A stretch of DNA of 17,902 nucleotides from a virus (Duplodnaviria > Heunggongvirae > Uroviricota > Caudoviricetes), in IMG/VR virus record IMGVR_UViG_2778261135_000007; one strand, given 5' to 3'. Of this stretch, positions 1,659 to 6,707 are shown piece by piece. The notes beneath the pieces were generated by a model, which saw only the letters and a list, made by a program, of their open reading frames with translations, made no database searches and was not told the DNA's origin. The position numbers were made by a program, and so were the translations under genes. How positions within the stretch are numbered: position 1 is the stretch's first letter; each line of letters begins with the position of its first letter.

Positions 1659-4130
1659 TTAAGAATCAGCCTGACTCGGGATAAGTTTTTGCCAGATAAC
1701 TGAAACGTATTTTGCCTGGTAACGGGCGTCATCAAGTGCATTATGGCGCTCACCTTCGAATGGAATAGCCGTTCTGGCATCGAAGTCTATGGCTTTCCCC
1801 AGCTCAACGATTGTGCGTACATCGCGATCGTTGTAGTAACGCCACGGGCAGGGGATCCCCTGCCGTTCGTATGAACGGCGCAAAATCGTGTTGTCGAAGT
1901 TGGCTCCATTTCCCCAAACCTGAACAAAAAATTCACCGGAGTTTTCGTCGATAAATTCCCGCAATTGTAACAGTGCATCATCTAACGGGATTTCATCGGT
2001 CATAATGGCAGATTGCGCTTCGCGTGATTGCTTAAGCCACCATTTAATGGTGTCCCGATCAATGACTCCGCCAGCAGTTTCCAGATCGATAGTCTTACTA
2101 AATTCCGGTCCCATATCTCCGGTTTGCGGATCGAAAAATATTGCACCTATTGAGATGATCGGGGCATCAGGATTTTTTCCCATGGTTTCAAGGTCGATCA
2201 TTAGATGGTCACACGTCCTGCTGGTGGATGTGATTTCGTGATGACCGTTCACCTTAATTGGATGATCTGTCGTCTCGCCAGTTTCATTATCGCTATTGTG
2301 ATGCTGATTGCCGCCAGTGTTCTCCTTGTGTGGATGTTCAGCGCCTTCCATTTCCTCCGGATCATCTTCCTGAACTTCAACCTGATACTCTTCATCGAAT
2401 GTTTCTTGGTATGTTGCGTCGCCCATCACCGCGCCACAATCAGGGCAGTTGCCGCCGCCGGTCTGACCGCAGGCGGTGCAGACTTTTTCCACTTCCTGTT
2501 GCGCCACTGGTTCAGGCTGTTTCGTTTCTGGCTCGTTTTGTAACGCATTTGGACTGTTTTGTTCCGCTTTTTGGTAGTTCCGTTCCGATTCATGCTGGTT
2601 CTGGTTCACAGAATCGCGGGTCTGGATCCCCTTAACCCATTTCGGATCATTCGGGTCACTAATCCCTTCAACAAATTCACCACGTGATGCAGCAAGCAAC
2701 TTATCGGCGTCAGGCTGGCTGATATTGGCTGCCTGCATAATTTTGTTTACTTCGTCAGCGGTAACTTTTATCGGCTCTGGTTGTTCTGAATCTTCAGCGG
2801 TATCTACATTTTGCGGTAAGCCCGTGTATGTGCCATTTTTTCGGGCAAAATATTCTTCTTTTGTGATTTCAGTAGCGCCAGCAGCCAGTGCCTTATCCAG
2901 ACCAGAAAGTTTGTTTGCGCGACCGTATTTTTCTCCGTCCTTATCTGCGAAGAGGAAATAGAACGGCCCCTCACGCTCTACAGATGGTTCAGCTTCCGGC
3001 GCGGTTTCATTTTTTGGGATATCAGATACCTCAGTTTCCACTGCATCAGTTTGTGTTTCTGATGACTGGAGAACATCAACAGTGCCCAGGTCTGTTTCTT
3101 CATTCTCAAACACGCCCTTTGTCGTCAGGTATTCGCAGATATATTTGTTCAGTGCTACGGGATCTTTGTGAATGTCGATCGGACGCTCACGGACAAGGCC
3201 AAAAATAGTTTGGCGGTCGTAGCGAAGGGCATCAGGCTGTTTGCGCATTGATGCCGAGATACGCTTCCAGTCTTCGCGGTCGTTGTCGATAACTTCTTTT
3301 TTTGCCCAGCGATGGATGCTGCCGTCAATGTTTCCGGCATCCACATCACCAGGCCAGAGAGCGTAGGCCAGTTCGTCATCCAGTGTTTTCCATGTCTGCT
3401 TGTATTCGCGATGAATGGCAGCAATGACCGGGCTGATTTTTCCTGTTGAATTTTCAGTGTACTGTTGATTGGCTCTGGCGCGGGCGAGATCAACAACAGA
3501 CGTGTATTTTCCGGTTTCCTTGCGTTCACCTTCGCGACGTTTTTTCCAGATGCGCATCTCTGCCTGAATTTCGGGCCATTTAGCACCAGGAATACATTTA
3601 TGCTTAACCCACCCAATGGCGTGCAACTTAAGCTCCGGATACATGGCGTTAACTTCTGGCATTTTCATCAACGCTTCAACGATATGTCCGTCGAATGTTG
3701 CCATGTCTTCCTGCAACAATTCTTGTGCGCTAATAACCATATCAACGGTGATGTTTTCACATGTATCGAACTTAACCATGACAGCGTTCTGTACTTCAGG
3801 GGCCAGCTTGTCAAAAGTGACGTTCATCGGATCGGATTCAGTCTCAACCGGGACAAAAGAAGCAGACTCCTCATCCCAGCGGTTTTCCTGCATATATTCA
3901 GCATCCCATGAATCGAGGGCAGGGCGGGGTATGCCAGGTTTATCCTCGCAGACAATAAATTTATAAGCGCAGTCCTGAGCAGCCGGATAATGTTCCAGGA
4001 ATTGCCAGTGAAATTTTGCTCGAGCACGGCGTTCGTCGCCAGCTTCAATGGCTGTGGCTACAGCCACAGCGCCTTCTTCCCTTATTGCCAGTTCGTCAGG
4101 AATAGCGGCGCAAATAAAGACTTTACTCAT
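1659..4130 (-). CDS. Prophage exonuclease (exodeoxyribonuclease VIII-like) with C-terminal DEDDh (DnaQ-like) 3'-5' exonuclease domain
   Basis: 823-aa ORF. C-terminal roughly 180 aa carries the three DEDDh motifs directly visible in the translation: MIDLETMG (Exo I), WGNGANFDNTIL (Exo II), ERHNALDDARYQAKY (Exo III). The middle is an acidic low-complexity linker with a CxxC...CxxC element (CTACGQTGGGNCPDCG). GAGGT Shine-Dalgarno upstream of the ATG at 4130. Confidence 0.8.
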   Translation of the reverse strand: MSKVFICAAIPDELAIREEGAVAVATAIEAGDERRARAKFHWQFLEHYPAAQDCAYKFIVCEDKPGIPRPALDSWDAEYMQENRWDEESASFVPVETESDPMNVTFDKLAPEVQNAVMVKFDTCENITVDMVISAQELLQEDMATFDGHIVEALMKMPEVNAMYPELKLHAIGWVKHKCIPGAKWPEIQAEMRIWKKRREGERKETGKYTSVVDLARARANQQYTENSTGKISPVIAAIHREYKQTWKTLDDELAYALWPGDVDAGNIDGSIHRWAKKEVIDNDREDWKRISASMRKQPDALRYDRQTIFGLVRERPIDIHKDPVALNKYICEYLTTKGVFENEETDLGTVDVLQSSETQTDAVETEVSDIPKNETAPEAEPSVEREGPFYFLFADKDGEKYGRANKLSGLDKALAAGATEITKEEYFARKNGTYTGLPQNVDTAEDSEQPEPIKVTADEVNKIMQAANISQPDADKLLAASRGEFVEGISDPNDPKWVKGIQTRDSVNQNQHESERNYQKAEQNSPNALQNEPETKQPEPVAQQEVEKVCTACGQTGGGNCPDCGAVMGDATYQETFDEEYQVEVQEDDPEEMEGAEHPHKENTGGNQHHNSDNETGETTDHPIKVNGHHEITSTSRTCDHLMIDLETMGKNPDAPIISIGAIFFDPQTGDMGPEFSKTIDLETAGGVIDRDTIKWWLKQSREAQSAIMTDEIPLDDALLQLREFIDENSGEFFVQVWGNGANFDNTILRRSYERQGIPCPWRYYNDRDVRTIVELGKAIDFDARTAIPFEGERHNALDDARYQAKYVSVIWQKLIPSQADS

Positions 4131-4223: not shown

Positions 4224-4415
4224 TTAAAGACCTGCCGGGATTTCGATATTATCCTGGTGAATAACTTTATCGACCGGGTAACAGTTACCGGGAATTTTCT
4301 GTTCGGTTGCTGCAGTCATACACTCCTGCATTGTCCTGTGAACACTGACTGCAATATCAACTGGCACTCCGGAAACAAGAAAAACTGTCAGAACAAGCGC
4401 AAATGCTGAATTCAT
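4224..4415 (-). CDS. ydfD: YdfD-like small membrane/lysis protein (63 aa)
   Basis: Internal start MNSAFALVLTVFLVSGVPVD... gives 63 aa with a hydrophobic N-terminal segment. Start abuts the dicB stop, as in the dicB operon. Sequence matches my recollection of Qin YdfD. Confidence 0.7.
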   Translation of the reverse strand: MNSAFALVLTVFLVSGVPVDIAVSVHRTMQECMTAATEQKIPGNCYPVDKVIHQDNIEIPAGL

Positions 4416-4600
4416 TGTGCACATCCTTTTGGCATCAGACGTAAACGAGCCAGCATTGAAACAATGCATATTTTATTTAATAGCTCCCGTTCTTGTTTTC
4501 TCTTGTTAATGGCATCTTCAGTAAATACAGGGTTACTGATAGTGACACCAATTTCAAAACAACCTTCAGACGTATTAACGTTTGGTAATAACGTTTTCAT
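4412..4600 (-). CDS. dicB: Cell division inhibitor DicB (62 aa)
   Basis: Translation from the internal ATG, MKTLLPNVNTSEGCFEIGVTISNPVFTEDAINKRKQERELLNKICIVSMLARLRLMPKGCAQ, matches the DicB sequence as I remember it. GAGGA Shine-Dalgarno upstream. The longer 97-aa track ORF is an upstream in-frame extension. Confidence 0.85.
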   Translation of the reverse strand: MKTLLPNVNTSEGCFEIGVTISNPVFTEDAINKRKQERELLNKICIVSMLARLRLMPKGCAQ

Positions 4601-4774: not shown

Positions 4775-4827
4775 CGGCGGCAGAGCAGTCACGGAGTAAA
4801 ACTGATACCGCCAAACGTCACCAGAAA
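4775..4827 (-). ncRNA. dicF: DicF small regulatory RNA (53 nt; targets ftsZ mRNA)
   Basis: Reverse complement of 4775-4827 reads TTTCTGGTGACGTTTGGCGGTATCAGTTTTACTCCGTGACTGCTCTGCCGCCG, matching recalled DicF over essentially its full length. Followed on the minus strand by a T-run (TTTTT). Lies between the ydfC region and dicB, as in the Qin dicB operon. Confidence 0.85.
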
Positions 4828-4858
4828 ATTGATAACAGAGGGCGTTGCAGCGGTGTTG

Positions 4859-5050
4859 TCACTTAAGCGTATGGTCAACCTGACAACTCGGTGTCCTCAA
4901 CGGGGAAGGAATAACCCCGCCGTACTTACCGCCGCGCCATTTTGCGGGTTGCCACAACCGGAAGCGCACGGTCGAATTAAATTTAACGACACCGTACAGT
5001 GAGACGAACTTCGCCGTGCGCTTTCGTGTTGTGTGCCTGCTTTTAACCAC
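4859..5050 (-). CDS. Hypothetical small protein in the ydfC position (weak call; region may be structured RNA)
   Basis: 63-aa minus ORF between the ydfB-like ORF and dicF. A competing 61-aa ORF in another frame (4897-5082), GC-rich sequence and long inverted repeats (GCGCACGG at about 4964-4974 pairing with CCGTGCGC at about 5012-5021) make the coding assignment uncertain. Confidence 0.3.
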   Translation of the reverse strand: MVKSRHTTRKRTAKFVSLYGVVKFNSTVRFRLWQPAKWRGGKYGGVIPSPLRTPSCQVDHTLK

Positions 5051-5086
5051 GTCAGGCGAGGTGGTATCCTTAAAATCACCACAGTT

Positions 5087-5662
5087 TTAAGGATTCATTA
5101 AGCAATGTCGCAACCACCAATAAATCCGCTTAAGAACATGAAAATTGATTACTGGTATAAAGCGCTTACAGTTGTTGGCGCTGCGTTGTTTGTCTTTAAT
5201 GGAACGTCTTTTTTTGACAGATATCCCGTTGTTCCATTGGGTTTTTTGTCCTCCGGCATCTTTTTTATTGGTTTGGGGGAGTGGATTAATCACCCTCTCA
5301 AAGTGAGATTTATTGGTCCTGGAGTTTGGACTCGTGGATATAATCGTTCTTCGTGCGCACTCGGTATCATCTTCGACATACTTGGTTGTTTCCTGATTGT
5401 TACAGGAGTCGTCAAGTTCTTCTGATGTAAAACCGCAAATGGGGCACGTAACGGGAATTTTGAAAAGCGTTTCTCCGGGTTCCAGAACAAAATTTTCTGC
5501 GGTCTGATTTTGCTTCTCATATTTGTGCTCCGCGTCATTGTGAGAGCACATTCTTATTCTGAGTGCCTGTTTAAACTCACTGAAGCTGAGAGCTTCTTCG
5601 CCTTCGGCAAGGCCTTCGAAGTATTCTTCGTAAGCCTTTTCCATGATTGTGTCGAAATCCAT
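5087..5662 (-). CDS. YdfB-like protein, extended form (about 191 aa) with a CPICG zinc-ribbon-like element
   Basis: Start ATG overlaps the ydfA stop (TGATATG junction). N-terminus MDFDTIMEKAYEEYFEGLAEGEEALSFSEFKQAL.... The C-terminal half is K/N/Q-rich and is antisense to a hydrophobic plus-strand ORF, so the 3' portion may not be coding. Confidence 0.4.
   Translation of the reverse strand: MDFDTIMEKAYEEYFEGLAEGEEALSFSEFKQALRIRMCSHNDAEHKYEKQNQTAENFVLEPGETLFKIPVTCPICGFTSEELDDSCNNQETTKYVEDDTECARRTIISTSPNSRTNKSHFERVINPLPQTNKKDAGGQKTQWNNGISVKKRRSIKDKQRSANNCKRFIPVINFHVLKRIYWWLRHCLMNP
5105..5425 (+). CDS. Hypothetical membrane protein (about 3 predicted hydrophobic helices), antisense to the ydfB-like ORF
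   Basis: 106-aa ORF with three hydrophobic segments (YWYKALTVVGAALFVF, VVPLGFLSSGIFFIGLGEWI, ALGIIFDILGCFLIVTGVV). AAGGA Shine-Dalgarno about 11 nt upstream. Opposite to the operon direction, so it may be only the mirror image of the minus-strand ORF. Confidence 0.2.
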   Translation: MSQPPINPLKNMKIDYWYKALTVVGAALFVFNGTSFFDRYPVVPLGFLSSGIFFIGLGEWINHPLKVRFIGPGVWTRGYNRSSCALGIIFDILGCFLIVTGVVKFF

Positions 5663-5663
5663 A

Positions 5664-5819
5664 TCACTCACCTGAGTTTCTTTCCAGCCAGCGACGGGCA
5701 CCATTTTCGGTTTTAAACGTTTTGCTTTTGGTATACGTCATCGCGGTGAACGTACCGTCCTGGTTGGGGAACACGCCACATACCAGAGATTCGCTGTTGC
5801 CAAGATCGATAGTATCCAT
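5664..5819 (-). CDS. ydfA: YdfA-like small protein (51 aa)
   Basis: Internal ATG gives MDTIDLGNSESLVCGVFPNQDGTFTAMTYTKSKTFKTENGARRWLERNSGE, 51 aa. First gene downstream of dicA on the same strand, as in Qin. The 77-aa track ORF is an upstream extension. Confidence 0.65.
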   Translation of the reverse strand: MDTIDLGNSESLVCGVFPNQDGTFTAMTYTKSKTFKTENGARRWLERNSGE

Positions 5820-5985
5820 GCTGACCTCATTTCCCCTTAACGCCGGGGTAGCGGAACTGTTTGCTGAGAACACCGTGCGGTGTGTTGATGCAAACAAGAT
5901 TAGCCATGACTAACATATTGGTCAAGTGATTTTGTATGTTATAGTTAACATAATTAATATAGTAAAAGATAACTCATTGATGATG

Positions 5986-6393
5986 TTATCTTTTATTTGT
6001 CCGCTGACGGGCTTTTAGTAATTCTTCAAAGAGTTTATTGAAGTTTTTTACTCGAGCTCGCATTTCGGCGAGCTGGGTATCCTGTTCTGATTCTGGCAGT
6101 GCATTAAACAGCTCAAGGAGCTCTAGTTCTTTGGGAGATAAGGCAACTGGCTTCTCAACAGGTGGTGTTGGTTGCTTGTCTTCATCGCCAAATAGAATCC
6201 ATGTTGGTGAGCATTGCAATACTTTGCTGAGGGCAAAAAGGTTCTTCCCTGTAGGTTCACTATCATCCCGTTCCCATTGTGATACAGACACATGGGAGAT
6301 TTTCAGGGCTTTAGCAAGAGACCTTTGGGTGTGTTTGAGGTTTTTCCGACGATACCTAATGCGTTCGCCGATAGTTAAATTTTTTGTATCCAT
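5986..6393 (-). CDS. dicA: Repressor DicA (cI/C2-like HTH repressor of the dicB operon), 135 aa
   Basis: 135-aa translation (MDTKNLTIGERIRYRRKNLKHTQRSLAKALKISHVSVSQWER ... LLKARQRTNKR) matches recalled DicA nearly residue for residue. HTH_XRE-type helix-turn-helix near the N-terminus. Divergent from dicC. Confidence 0.9.
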   Translation of the reverse strand: MDTKNLTIGERIRYRRKNLKHTQRSLAKALKISHVSVSQWERDDSEPTGKNLFALSKVLQCSPTWILFGDEDKQPTPPVEKPVALSPKELELLELFNALPESEQDTQLAEMRARVKNFNKLFEELLKARQRTNKR

Positions 6394-6476: not shown

Positions 6477-6707
6477 ATGCTTAAAACTGACGCTCTTTTG
6501 TATTTCGGTTCAAAAACAAAACTTGCACAAGCAGCTGGTATTCGTTTGGCTTCGCTTTATAGCTGGAAAGGGGATTTAGTTCCCGAAGGTCGCGCGATGC
6601 GTCTACAGGAGGCATCTGGCGGGGAGCTTCAGTATGACCCCAAAGTTTATGACGAATATCGTAAGACGAAGCGGGCGGGGCGGTTGAACAATGAAAATCA
6701 CTCCTGA
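6477..6707 (+). CDS. dicC: Cro-like regulator DicC (76 aa)
   Basis: 76-aa translation MLKTDALLYFGSKTKLAQAAGIRLASLYSWKGDLVPEGRAMRLQEASGGELQYDPKVYDEYRKTKRAGRLNNENHS matches recalled DicC. AAGGTG Shine-Dalgarno 6 nt upstream. Divergent from dicA. Confidence 0.85.
   Translation: MLKTDALLYFGSKTKLAQAAGIRLASLYSWKGDLVPEGRAMRLQEASGGELQYDPKVYDEYRKTKRAGRLNNENHS

What the first reader, a model, noticed from the sequence alone, without database searches (positions are those of the whole stretch)
5087..5704. Overlapping opposite-strand ORFs in the ydfB region: extended Cys-containing protein versus an antisense three-helix membrane protein
The ydfB-like minus-strand ORF runs about 191 codons with a CPICG element. 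Its C-terminal half is K/N/Q-rich, exactly what the antisense of a hydrophobic gene looks like. The plus-strand 106-aa ORF over the same DNA has three convincing hydrophobic helices and an AAGGA Shine-Dalgarno. Only one is likely real over 5105-5425; the choice changes whether the dicB operon contains an embedded opposite-strand membrane gene.
Basis: seen in the sequence. Interest (0 to 1): 0.55.

Follow-up and report, generated by a model that had tools for sequence, protein, structure and literature searches.

The report
Membrane gene overlapped by antisense ORF
A real, mostly unannotated small membrane-protein gene sits backwards inside the dicB operon of this E. coli prophage, and the operon-strand gene that reads through it in antisense also looks real, because evolution has kept its frame free of stop codons across distant phages.

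Summary
Both ORFs are present as described. The plus ORF (5105-5425, 106 aa) is a genuine gene. It belongs to a ~100-110 aa three-helix membrane family with invariant DYWYKA and GLGEWINHPL motifs. The family has 483 clusters (50% identity) across Proteobacteria and phages, no Pfam or PHROG model, dN/dS of 0.09-0.24, and a conserved promoter-like element upstream. It recurs next to prophage repressor genes.

The either/or framing is too simple. The minus ORF starts at the YdfB Met (5662), coupled to ydfA. Its non-overlapping head, including IPxxCPxCGF, is under purifying selection.

Its 112-codon tail is the same-register antisense of the membrane gene. The tail's amino-acid sequence is unconstrained (dN/dS 0.55-1.7). 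Its frame is nevertheless kept open. In nine deep lineages carrying this partner ORF, the membrane gene uses TTA/CTA/TCA in 1 of 111 Leu/Ser codons, against 76 of 431 A-ending codons in other families. Homologues without the partner carry 0-14 antisense stops.

Best reading: a conserved convergent two-gene module, with the tail probably a translated read-through. Neither protein's function is established.

The parts
5105..5425 (+). 106-aa three-helix membrane protein gene, a new family with DYWYKA and GLGEWINHPL motifs, embedded opposite to the dicB operon
   Evidence: ORF. 60 homologues down to 34% identity, 100-111 aa long. 483 representative clusters. ORF intact in 34 genome loci. dN/dS 0.09-0.24. 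AF2 mean pLDDT 82.
5089..5093 (+). AAGGA Shine-Dalgarno of the plus gene
   Evidence: Read directly from the sequence. Spacing to the ATG at 5105 is 11 nt.
5030..5070 (+). Conserved non-coding element upstream of the plus gene (TGTGCCTG..CCAC.TCAGGC..GGTGGTATCC). Read as -35 TTAACC (5043-5048), a 16-nt spacer and an extended -10 TGgTATCCT (5062-5070), with the inverted repeat GCCTG/CAGGC.
   Evidence: More conserved than the coding sequence across window, L122, L123, L133, L117, Yersinia L120 and L217-L220. No covariation and no Rfam match. The generic promoter scan did not call it. The promoter reading is inference.
5087..5662 (-). 191-codon operon-strand ORF plus its stop: YdfB N-terminus fused to a CPxCG partner ORF and its antisense tail
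   Evidence: PGAP annotates it either as the 191-aa WP_000344958.1 or only as a ydfB fragment. It matches phrog_35040.
5561..5662 (-). YdfB-homologous N-terminus (34 aa shared with the 42-aa K-12 YdfB). The ATG at 5660-5662 lies 1 nt after the ydfA stop TGA (5664-5666), which indicates translational coupling.
   Evidence: phrog_2061 at E = 3.6e-30. K-12 comparison. Sequence.
5426..5560 (-). Non-overlapping head of the partner ORF, ending in LEPGETLFKIPVTCPICGFT (CPICG at 5432-5446)
   Evidence: Third-position variation in the minus frame: 18 of 20 variable columns at position 3, against 12 and 9 at positions 1 and 2. Head dN/dS 0.17-0.37. 11 of 21 population SNPs are synonymous. The motif recurs in L006, L007 and L217-L222.
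5090..5425 (-). 112-codon tail of the minus ORF, the same-register antisense of the whole plus gene. It is hydrophilic and basic. The stop TAA is at 5087-5089.
   Evidence: Minus-frame dN/dS 0.55-1.7. Stop avoidance: 1/111 against 76/431, P = 1.7e-7. 0-1 stops with the partner against 0-14 without. AF2 pLDDT below 50. Nonsense alleles K148* and C116* segregate in the population.
5663..5704 (-). Mechanical 5' extension of the 205-aa ORF into ydfA. Probably not coding in this frame.
   Evidence: It overlaps ydfA (5664-5819). All 4 SNPs there are non-synonymous in this frame. PGAP starts the gene at 5662.
5664..5819 (-). ydfA (DUF1391), the gene upstream in the dicB operon
   Evidence: Pfam PF07151 at E = 2.8e-27. 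RefSeq annotation.
4775..4826 (-). DicF sRNA, the next operon feature downstream of the minus ORF. ydfC is absent here.
   Evidence: Rfam RF00039, 72.5 bits. K-12 comparison.

Best explanation
This is a convergent, fully overlapping two-gene module carried by lambdoid prophages.

(1) The plus gene encodes a conserved ~106-aa inner-membrane protein with three helices and a short hairpin. It appears to have its own conserved promoter and Shine-Dalgarno. It lies backwards in the early operon next to the repressor gene, so it is most likely expressed in the lysogen as a moron-type gene. Superinfection exclusion or a similar envelope function is inferred from its position only.

(2) The operon-strand ORF is translated from the YdfB start, coupled to ydfA. 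Its head is a small selected domain ending in IPxxCPxCGF. Ribosomes then read 112 further codons that are the antisense of the membrane gene, and stop 16 nt before that gene's ATG.

(3) The tail's amino-acid sequence is dictated by the membrane gene and is not itself conserved. Its open frame is maintained by selection: the membrane gene avoids TTA, CTA and TCA.

My preferred reason is inference. Uninterrupted translation would keep the early-operon transcript, which is complementary to the membrane-gene mRNA, covered by ribosomes. That would prevent Rho-dependent polarity or RNase III cleavage of a duplex, so the downstream genes (here dicF, dicB, ydfD and the exonuclease) are expressed after derepression.

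Steps shown: both ORFs exist; the plus frame is under selection; the head is under selection; stops are avoided; the context is conserved. Steps inferred: the promoter, when each gene is expressed, the reason for stop avoidance, and both protein functions.
For: Plus gene. The family alignment has invariant motifs. There are 483 clusters. The ORF is intact in 34 diverse genomes, while the antisense frame has 5-17 stops in most homologues with GC below 0.46. Differences pile up at plus codon position 3 (8/10/22 and 11/7/35). dN/dS is 0.09-0.24. 14 of 29 population SNPs are synonymous in the plus frame, against 6 of 29 in the minus frame. The gene sits beside cI/DicA/LexA-type repressors in E. 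coli, Yersinia, Pantoea, Kushneria, Arcobacter and mEp390.

Minus head. IPxxCPxCGF is conserved with synonymous codon variation. dN/dS is 0.17-0.37. Partner ORFs have a Met and a Shine-Dalgarno-like sequence 30-45 codons upstream of the overlap in every lineage. The spacing CPxCG-x-x-|overlap never varies.

Open tail. There are 0-1 register stops in 17 partner-bearing sequences, against 0-14 in 20 without the partner (Mann-Whitney P = 5e-6; P = 9e-5 within GC 0.38-0.50). TTA/CTA/TCA make up 1/152 codons against 104/565 A-ending codons in other families (P = 8e-11). Non-partner homologues give 64/196 against 121/500. With one representative per deep lineage the counts are 1/111 against 76/431 (P = 1.7e-7). 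The plus ORF does use other rare A-ending codons (AGA x2, ATA x2, GGA x4).

Operon context. In mEp390 the partner, gp39, exactly fills the gap between cro and the cII-like gene. Co-directional genes lie downstream of the partner in every case examined.
Against: No expression data exist for either strand.

The lineages are not fully independent, so the P values are optimistic.

Within E. coli, two nonsense alleles in the tail segregate in about 3% of loci. That is close to the neutral expectation for 29 SNPs, so selection on the open frame is not visible at the population level in these mostly cryptic prophages. L123 carries a stop inside the CPVCG motif.

In L217 and L220-L222 the tail ends 15-20 codons before the membrane gene's start. 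In L224 about 830 nt separate the partner's stop from the next leftward gene. That weakens a pure anti-polarity explanation.

The promoter was not called by the generic scan.

The low AF2 confidence for the minus protein comes from a shallow alignment and is not decisive.
Confidence: 0.62

Rival explanations
1. Only the plus-strand membrane gene is functional over 5105-5425. The minus-strand tail is a chance shadow ORF, an accidental read-through created when recombination fused the YdfB start to this cassette, and has no selective value.
For: The minus-frame dN/dS is about 1 or higher in the overlap. Only 6 of 29 SNPs are synonymous in the minus frame, and 2 nonsense alleles are tolerated. 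Frameshifted minus variants exist in some E. coli (P0073-P0080). The same-register antisense frame is the one most prone to long shadow ORFs. Several GC-rich homologues without a partner also have 0 stops (L003, L015, L026). AF2 finds no fold.
Against: A stop-free or nearly stop-free tail recurs in nine lineages at 33-74% identity with GC of 0.42-0.51. Partner-less homologues at the same GC have 4-10 stops. The deficit is specific to the three stop-complement codons and does not extend to A-ending or rare codons in general. The conserved head sits at an invariant distance from the overlap.
Confidence: 0.17
2. True dual coding. The tail is a functional part of the minus-strand protein. One possibility is a basic, disordered effector region following a zinc-knuckle head, or an antisense-peptide region that recognises the membrane protein it is complementary to. 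On this view the two products form a cognate pair, with one antagonising or regulating the other.
For: Stop avoidance. The junction spacing is invariant, and a semi-conserved (S/L)x(E/Q)(L/F) follows CPxCG-xx. The module moves as a unit between the pL-side and pR-side operons. The tail inherits conserved islands from the DYWYKA and GLGEWINHPL motifs.
Against: There is no amino-acid-level constraint beyond what the plus frame imposes. The tail length varies, ending early in L217 and L220-L222. A second Cys pair for a zinc ribbon is not conserved. No Pfam, PHROG or PADLOC family matches beyond the ORF's own cluster.
Confidence: 0.2
3. Only the minus-strand 191-aa protein is real, and the plus ORF is the artefact.
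For: Many pipelines call the minus ORF. PGAP gives WP_000344958.1 and phage HannyBb annotates only the minus ORF. It has its own PHROG.
Against: The plus protein family exists in many genomes where the antisense frame is riddled with stops. The substitution pattern and dN/dS favour the plus frame. The minus ORF has no homologues outside close relatives.
Confidence: 0.01

Closest known systems
Antisense (antiparallel) overlapping genes reported in E. coli and Pseudomonas, such as laoB, ano and the EDL933 candidates (PMC5810103, PMC5960689, PMC9927249, PMC8850804). The sceptical view is in bioRxiv 10.1101/724807.
   Same: A long ORF lies embedded antisense to a bona fide gene, and the issue is whether both are coding. 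The same-register frame is involved.
   Different: Here the older, strongly selected gene is the unannotated one. The overlap covers a whole gene of about 320 nt. The evidence is comparative: stop-codon avoidance tied to the presence of a conserved partner head, across genera and phages. It is not expression data from a single strain. No amino-acid-level constraint on the second frame was found.
Opposite-strand membrane genes of lambdoid immunity regions, such as sieB of the Rac prophage (from my own knowledge, not tested here), and moron-type lysogenic-conversion genes
   Same: A small inner-membrane protein gene lies beside the repressor gene and is oriented against the early operon, presumably with its own promoter.
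   Different: There is no sequence or profile similarity to SieB or to any PADLOC, Pfam or PHROG family. The function is untested. This gene is also fully overlapped by an operon-strand ORF.
YdfB of the E. coli K-12 Qin prophage (42 aa)
   Same: The first 34 residues and the ydfA-coupled start are shared, at 97% DNA identity.
   Different: K-12 YdfB ends after 42 aa and is followed by ydfC. Here the YdfB start is fused in frame to the CPxCG partner ORF. K-12 lacks window 5045-5561 altogether.
Immunity genes of pore-forming colicins (three- or four-helix membrane proteins encoded on the opposite strand inside the colicin operon; from my own knowledge)
   Same: A ~100-110 aa three-helix membrane protein is encoded backwards within an operon and expressed independently of it.
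   Different: There is no homology, no toxin gene nearby, and the colicin immunity genes are not overlapped by an antisense ORF. This is an analogy only.

Membership tests
YdfB (phrog_2061 / NCBI 'protein YdfB') | N-terminal sequence MDFDTIMEKAYEEYFEGLAEGEEALSFSEFKQAL, with the start coupled to the ydfA stop | tested here: met
   phrog_2061 at E = 3.6e-30 over residues 1-48. Window 5562-6100 is 97% identical to K-12.
YdfB (phrog_2061 / NCBI 'protein YdfB') | A short protein of about 42 aa that terminates before ydfC | tested here: not met
   191 codons here. The sequence diverges from K-12 after KQAL. PGAP flags it as a partial ydfB.
Bona fide protein family (plus ORF) | Homologues of conserved length with invariant motifs in unrelated genomes, and dN/dS well below 1 | tested here: met
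Antisense overlapping gene pair (dual coding) | Both ORFs are kept intact across diverged lineages, more often than composition predicts | tested here: met
   0-1 antisense stops in 17 partner-bearing sequences against 0-14 in 20 without. TTA/CTA/TCA are used in 1/111 codons against 76/431.
Antisense overlapping gene pair (dual coding) | Purifying selection on the amino-acid sequence of the second frame within the overlap | tested here: not met
   Minus-frame dN/dS 0.55-1.7. 6 of 29 SNPs are synonymous. Naive NG86 estimates are biased in overlapping regions, so this is only indicative.
Antisense overlapping gene pair (dual coding) | Transcription and translation of both strands | not testable with these tools
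   No RNA-seq or Ribo-seq data were available. The OLG preprint does not mention this locus.
Zinc ribbon / zinc knuckle protein (minus ORF head) | Two CxxC (or CxxH) knuckles supplying four zinc ligands | tested here: not met
   Only one CPxCG is conserved. Further Cys or His residues are not conserved across lineages, and the mEp390/Pantoea type lacks Cys altogether. No Pfam hit.
Superinfection exclusion / anti-phage defence proteins (SieB, PADLOC families) | Profile match to a known exclusion or defence family | tested here: not met
   No Pfam, PHROG, NCBIfam or PADLOC hit for the plus protein. No PDB fold match with E below 0.6.
Class I holins (about 105 aa, three transmembrane helices) | Holin family profile match, position in the lysis cassette, and a charged C-terminus | tested here: not met
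   No profile hit. The gene sits in the immunity region. The C-terminus is ...VTGVVKFF.

The most novel reading that the evidence does not exclude
An ancient two-gene module of temperate phages in which a small CPxCG protein is obligatorily encoded through the antisense strand of an entire membrane-protein gene. Its C-terminal half is therefore the literal antisense peptide of its partner. On this reading the overlap is functional: it couples the two products, or their expression states (lysogenic against lytic), as a cognate switch. That would make it one of the best comparatively supported fully embedded antisense gene pairs in bacteria or phages.
Probability: 0.25. Interest if true: 0.85.

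Novelty: new variant of a known kind. Interest (0 to 1): 0.62.

Why it matters
About 15% of complete E. coli genomes (806 of 5426) carry this segment, and RefSeq annotates nothing over most of it. A conserved membrane-protein family of about 480 clusters is therefore largely invisible. In several phage records only its antisense shadow is annotated (HannyBb, mEp390 gp39).

The locus also bears on a contested question: whether long antisense ORFs in bacteria are ever maintained by selection. Here there is a clean internal control, because stop-complement codons are avoided only where a conserved partner head is present. There are also simple, decisive experiments, using mutations that are silent in one frame and nonsense in the other.

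Finally, the dicB operon picture changes. Transcription from dicBp must run head-on through an independently promoted gene.

Tried and rejected
- **Family searches.** Pfam, PHROG, NCBIfam and PADLOC gave nothing for the plus protein. For the minus ORF they returned only its own cluster and the YdfB N-terminus.
- **Fold search.** Foldseek of the AF2 model against the PDB gave no match with E below 0.6, only generic three-helix membrane subunits.
- **AF2 of the 191-aa minus protein.** Mean pLDDT was 41 on a 7-sequence alignment, which is uninformative.
- **Generic promoter and terminator scan.** No call for the plus gene and no terminator after it.
- **Conserved upstream element as an RNA.** There is no covariation on either strand and no Rfam hit. 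I therefore read it as a DNA-level promoter/operator.
- **A conserved protein partner in non-phage homologues.** Neighbour clustering found only repressor genes recurring.
- **IMG/VR close relatives.** These were too similar (99-100% identity) for divergence tests and were used only for SNP counts.
- **Literature.** The dicBF papers and the E. coli overlapping-gene preprint do not mention this ORF pair.
- **Holin and colicin-immunity readings.** Rejected as memberships (see the membership test).

Full report
**Observation**

The window is a Qin-type lambdoid prophage immunity region. From left to right it holds:
- ydfD and dicB (about 4224-4600, minus strand);
- DicF (4775-4826, minus strand; Rfam 72.5 bits);
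- the region in question;
- ydfA (5664-5819, minus strand; DUF1391);
- dicA (5986-6393, minus strand) and dicC (6477-6707, plus strand).

The ORF listing confirms both ORFs: minus 5087..5704 (205 aa) and plus 5105..5425 (106 aa). Counted from the YdfB-type Met at 5662 the minus ORF has 191 codons. That ATG lies one base after the ydfA stop codon, which is a translationally coupled arrangement.

CPICG is encoded at 5432-5446, six bases outside the overlap. AAGGA lies at 5089-5093.

The two ORFs are in the same codon register. The minus frame can therefore be stopped only by plus-strand TTA, CTA or TCA codons, and the plus ORF has none among its 10 Leu and 6 Ser codons.

The tail is 49% K/N/Q/R/S/T, against 27% in the head.

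**The plus ORF is a real gene**

A search of 5.8 billion proteins found 60 homologues of 100-111 aa, down to 34% identity. They include Yersinia, Herminiimonas and Reinekea. The alignment shows invariant D-Y-W-Y-K-A and G-x-G-E-W-x-N-H-P.

A profile search of 1.84 billion representatives found 483 clusters at E ≤ 1e-3, and 216 at E ≤ 1e-10.

In 34 loci from one-genome-per-species contigs the ORF is intact. The same-register antisense frame carries 5-17 stops in most homologues with GC below 0.46.

Among five enterobacterial lineages, differences concentrate at plus codon position 3 (for example 8/10/22 and 11/7/35). Amino-acid differences number 13-53 in the plus frame and 29-74 in the antisense frame. 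NG86 dN/dS is 0.09-0.24 for the plus frame and 0.55-1.7 for the antisense frame.

Among 30 E. coli haplotypes, 14 of 29 overlap SNPs are synonymous in the plus frame and 6 of 29 in the minus frame.

AlphaFold2 gives mean pLDDT 82, with three long helices and a hairpin. No Pfam, PHROG, NCBIfam or PADLOC model matches, and there is no PDB fold match.

The gene recurs immediately beside cI/DicA/LexA-type repressor genes, on the opposite strand to the adjacent early operon. This holds in E. coli, Escherichia sp., Yersinia, Pantoea, Kushneria and Arcobacter. In phage mEp390 it lies between cro and the cII-like gene.

A stretch of about 45 nt, 35-75 nt upstream of the ATG, is more conserved than the coding sequence. 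Its invariant blocks are TGCCTG, CCAC.TCAGGC and GGTGGTAT. It is found in lineages whose proteins are only 33-50% identical. It shows no RNA covariation and no Rfam match. I read it as -35 TTAACC, a 16-nt spacer and an extended -10 TGgTATCCT, plus an operator. That reading is inference.

**The minus ORF is not simply an artefact**

The 20 codons just outside the overlap (LEPGETLFKIPVTCPICGFT) vary mostly at minus-frame third positions. Variable columns number 18 of 20 at position 3, against 12 and 9 at positions 1 and 2. Examples are Ile ATT/ATC/ATA, Pro CCC/CCA/CCG/CCT, Cys TGC/TGT and Gly GGT/GGA.

Head dN/dS is 0.17-0.37 in three sets of lineages. Eleven of 21 head SNPs are synonymous.

The same arrangement occurs in several other lineages: a short ORF with its own Met and a Shine-Dalgarno-like sequence, ending in CPxCG-x-x exactly at the antisense of the membrane gene's stop codon.
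- Roseateles (L006) has CPKCG.
- An uncultured gammaproteobacterium (L007) has CPKCG.
- IMG/VR phages L217-L222 have CPCCG, CPKCG or CPACG.
- mEp390, L214-L216 and Pantoea L008 have a Cys-less version (PGSVxI...GWK|L).

These are shown.

In mEp390 the annotated gp39 is this partner ORF, and the membrane gene on the other strand is not annotated. In the window the partner is fused in frame to the YdfB N-terminus. In L133/L135 it starts where ydfA starts and runs on into ydfC. K-12 Qin lacks the module.

**The open frame is maintained**

Over the core running from DYWYK to the stop codon, 17 partner-bearing sequences have 0-1 register stops. Twenty homologues without the partner motif have 0-14 (Mann-Whitney P = 5e-6; P = 9e-5 within GC 0.38-0.50).

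The internal control is stronger. In partner-bearing lineages A-ending codons make up 104/565 of the Val, Pro, Thr, Ala, Gly and Ile codons, but only 1/152 of the Leu and Ser(TCN) codons (P = 8e-11). Without the partner the figures are 121/500 and 64/196. With one representative for each of nine lineages (33-74% pairwise identity) the counts are 1/111 against 76/431 (P = 1.7e-7).

The lineages are not strictly independent. However, dS between them exceeds 1, and 41 distinct Leu/Ser codon states in five lineages include none of the three stop-complement codons.

Against this, E. coli populations carry two tail nonsense alleles (K148* and C116*), in about 3% of loci. That is roughly the neutral expectation. 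L123 has a stop inside its CPVCG motif. Stops do arise in these largely cryptic prophages, but they do not persist over the long term.

**Mechanism (inference)**

The membrane gene is probably expressed from its own promoter in the lysogen. The operon-strand ORF is translated only when dicBp is derepressed. DicA, DicC and Rem control of that promoter is described in PMC10448788.

Continuous translation across 336 nt that are complementary to the membrane-gene mRNA would do two things. It would prevent Rho-dependent polarity, and it would limit duplex formation and RNase III attack. Both effects protect expression of the downstream early genes.

This fits four observations:
- the frame is open but the sequence is unconstrained;
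- the stop lies near the end of the complementary region;
- the fit between cro and the cII-like gene in mEp390 is tight;
- nonsense alleles are tolerated in cryptic prophages.

It does not explain the conserved head or the invariant junction. It is also strained in L224, where about 830 nt follow the partner's stop. A functional tail therefore remains possible.

**Comparison and novelty**

Antisense overlapping genes have been proposed in E. coli and Pseudomonas, mainly from expression data (PMC5810103, PMC9927249, PMC8850804). Others have argued that long antiparallel ORFs are mostly compositional (bioRxiv 10.1101/724807).

This case differs in three ways. The evidence is comparative. It comes with a built-in control. 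The under-annotated gene is the strongly selected one. I class it as a new variant of a known kind.

Both proteins already exist in databases as 'hypothetical protein'. No paper found describes the pair.

**Verdict**

The embedded membrane gene is real, with confidence of about 0.95. The minus ORF is also real up to CPxCGF (about 0.85). Its tail is kept open by selection (about 0.75) without sequence constraint. The function of both products is unknown.

Noticed in passing
window 5030-5070 (also L117 3930-3975, L120 530-580, L217-L220 about 1405-1450): A DNA element of about 45 nt (TGTGCCTG..CCAC.TCAGGC..GGTGGTAT) upstream of the membrane gene is more conserved than either coding sequence, across lineages with 33-50% protein identity. 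It contains interleaved inverted repeats, GCCTG/CAGGC and CCAC/GTGG. It shows no covariation and has no Rfam match.
   Followed up: partly
window 5080-5520; RefSeq E. coli genomes: 806 of 5426 complete E. coli genomes carry this segment, 787 of them at 99% identity or higher. In most, RefSeq/PGAP annotates nothing under it. A few list a 'hypothetical protein', and further right there is only a partial ydfB pseudogene.
   Followed up: yes
L130 (phage mEp390, NC_019721) 2956-3411: The annotated gp39, between cro gp38 and the cII-like gp40, is the antisense partner ORF. The membrane-gene homologue on the opposite strand (3001-3315) is unannotated. Here the module sits in the rightward early operon rather than the leftward one.
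   Followed up: partly
L133/L135 1501-1930; proteins P0067, P0068, P0070 (271 aa): In these E. coli prophages the partner ORF starts exactly where ydfA starts in Qin. It reads through the antisense of the membrane gene and continues in frame into ydfC, giving a 271-aa ORF.
   Followed up: no
window 4827-5044 and 5045-5561, compared with K-12 (L223): K-12 Qin lacks window 5045-5561. In its place it has ydfC and the 3' end of the 42-aa ydfB. The window in turn lacks ydfC, leaving about 260 nt with no convincing gene between the minus ORF's stop and DicF.
   Followed up: partly
L117 3794-3875 (-): A tRNA-Asn(gtt) gene lies in the leftward early operon, just downstream of the partner ORF and next to the conserved element.
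   Followed up: no
L017, L018, L019 (Arcobacter sp. Pygsuia-1, NZ_CP182343): One chromosome holds three identical copies of the membrane-gene homologue together with 10 kb of flank, each near a LexA/cI-like repressor. This suggests a triplicated prophage or mobile element.
   Followed up: no
L123 about 4327-4329; L137; L028 5001-5036: There are signs of decay in some carriers. L123 has TGA in place of the Gly codon in CPVCG. The L137 type has a nonsense allele in the tail (C116*). In Shigella flexneri L028 the membrane ORF is truncated after 11 codons.
   Followed up: partly
L125 100-2730 (Reinekea marinisedimentorum); L127: In non-phage homologues the gene sits in a same-strand row of five or six small (99-147 aa) genes with no Pfam hits, next to a ParD-like gene. 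This is reminiscent of arrays of small immunity-type genes.
   Followed up: no
window 10326-10500, 13795-14187, 16697-17082: Elsewhere in the window Rfam finds the sok antitoxin RNA of hokD and two cspA-type thermoregulator 5' UTRs.
   Followed up: no
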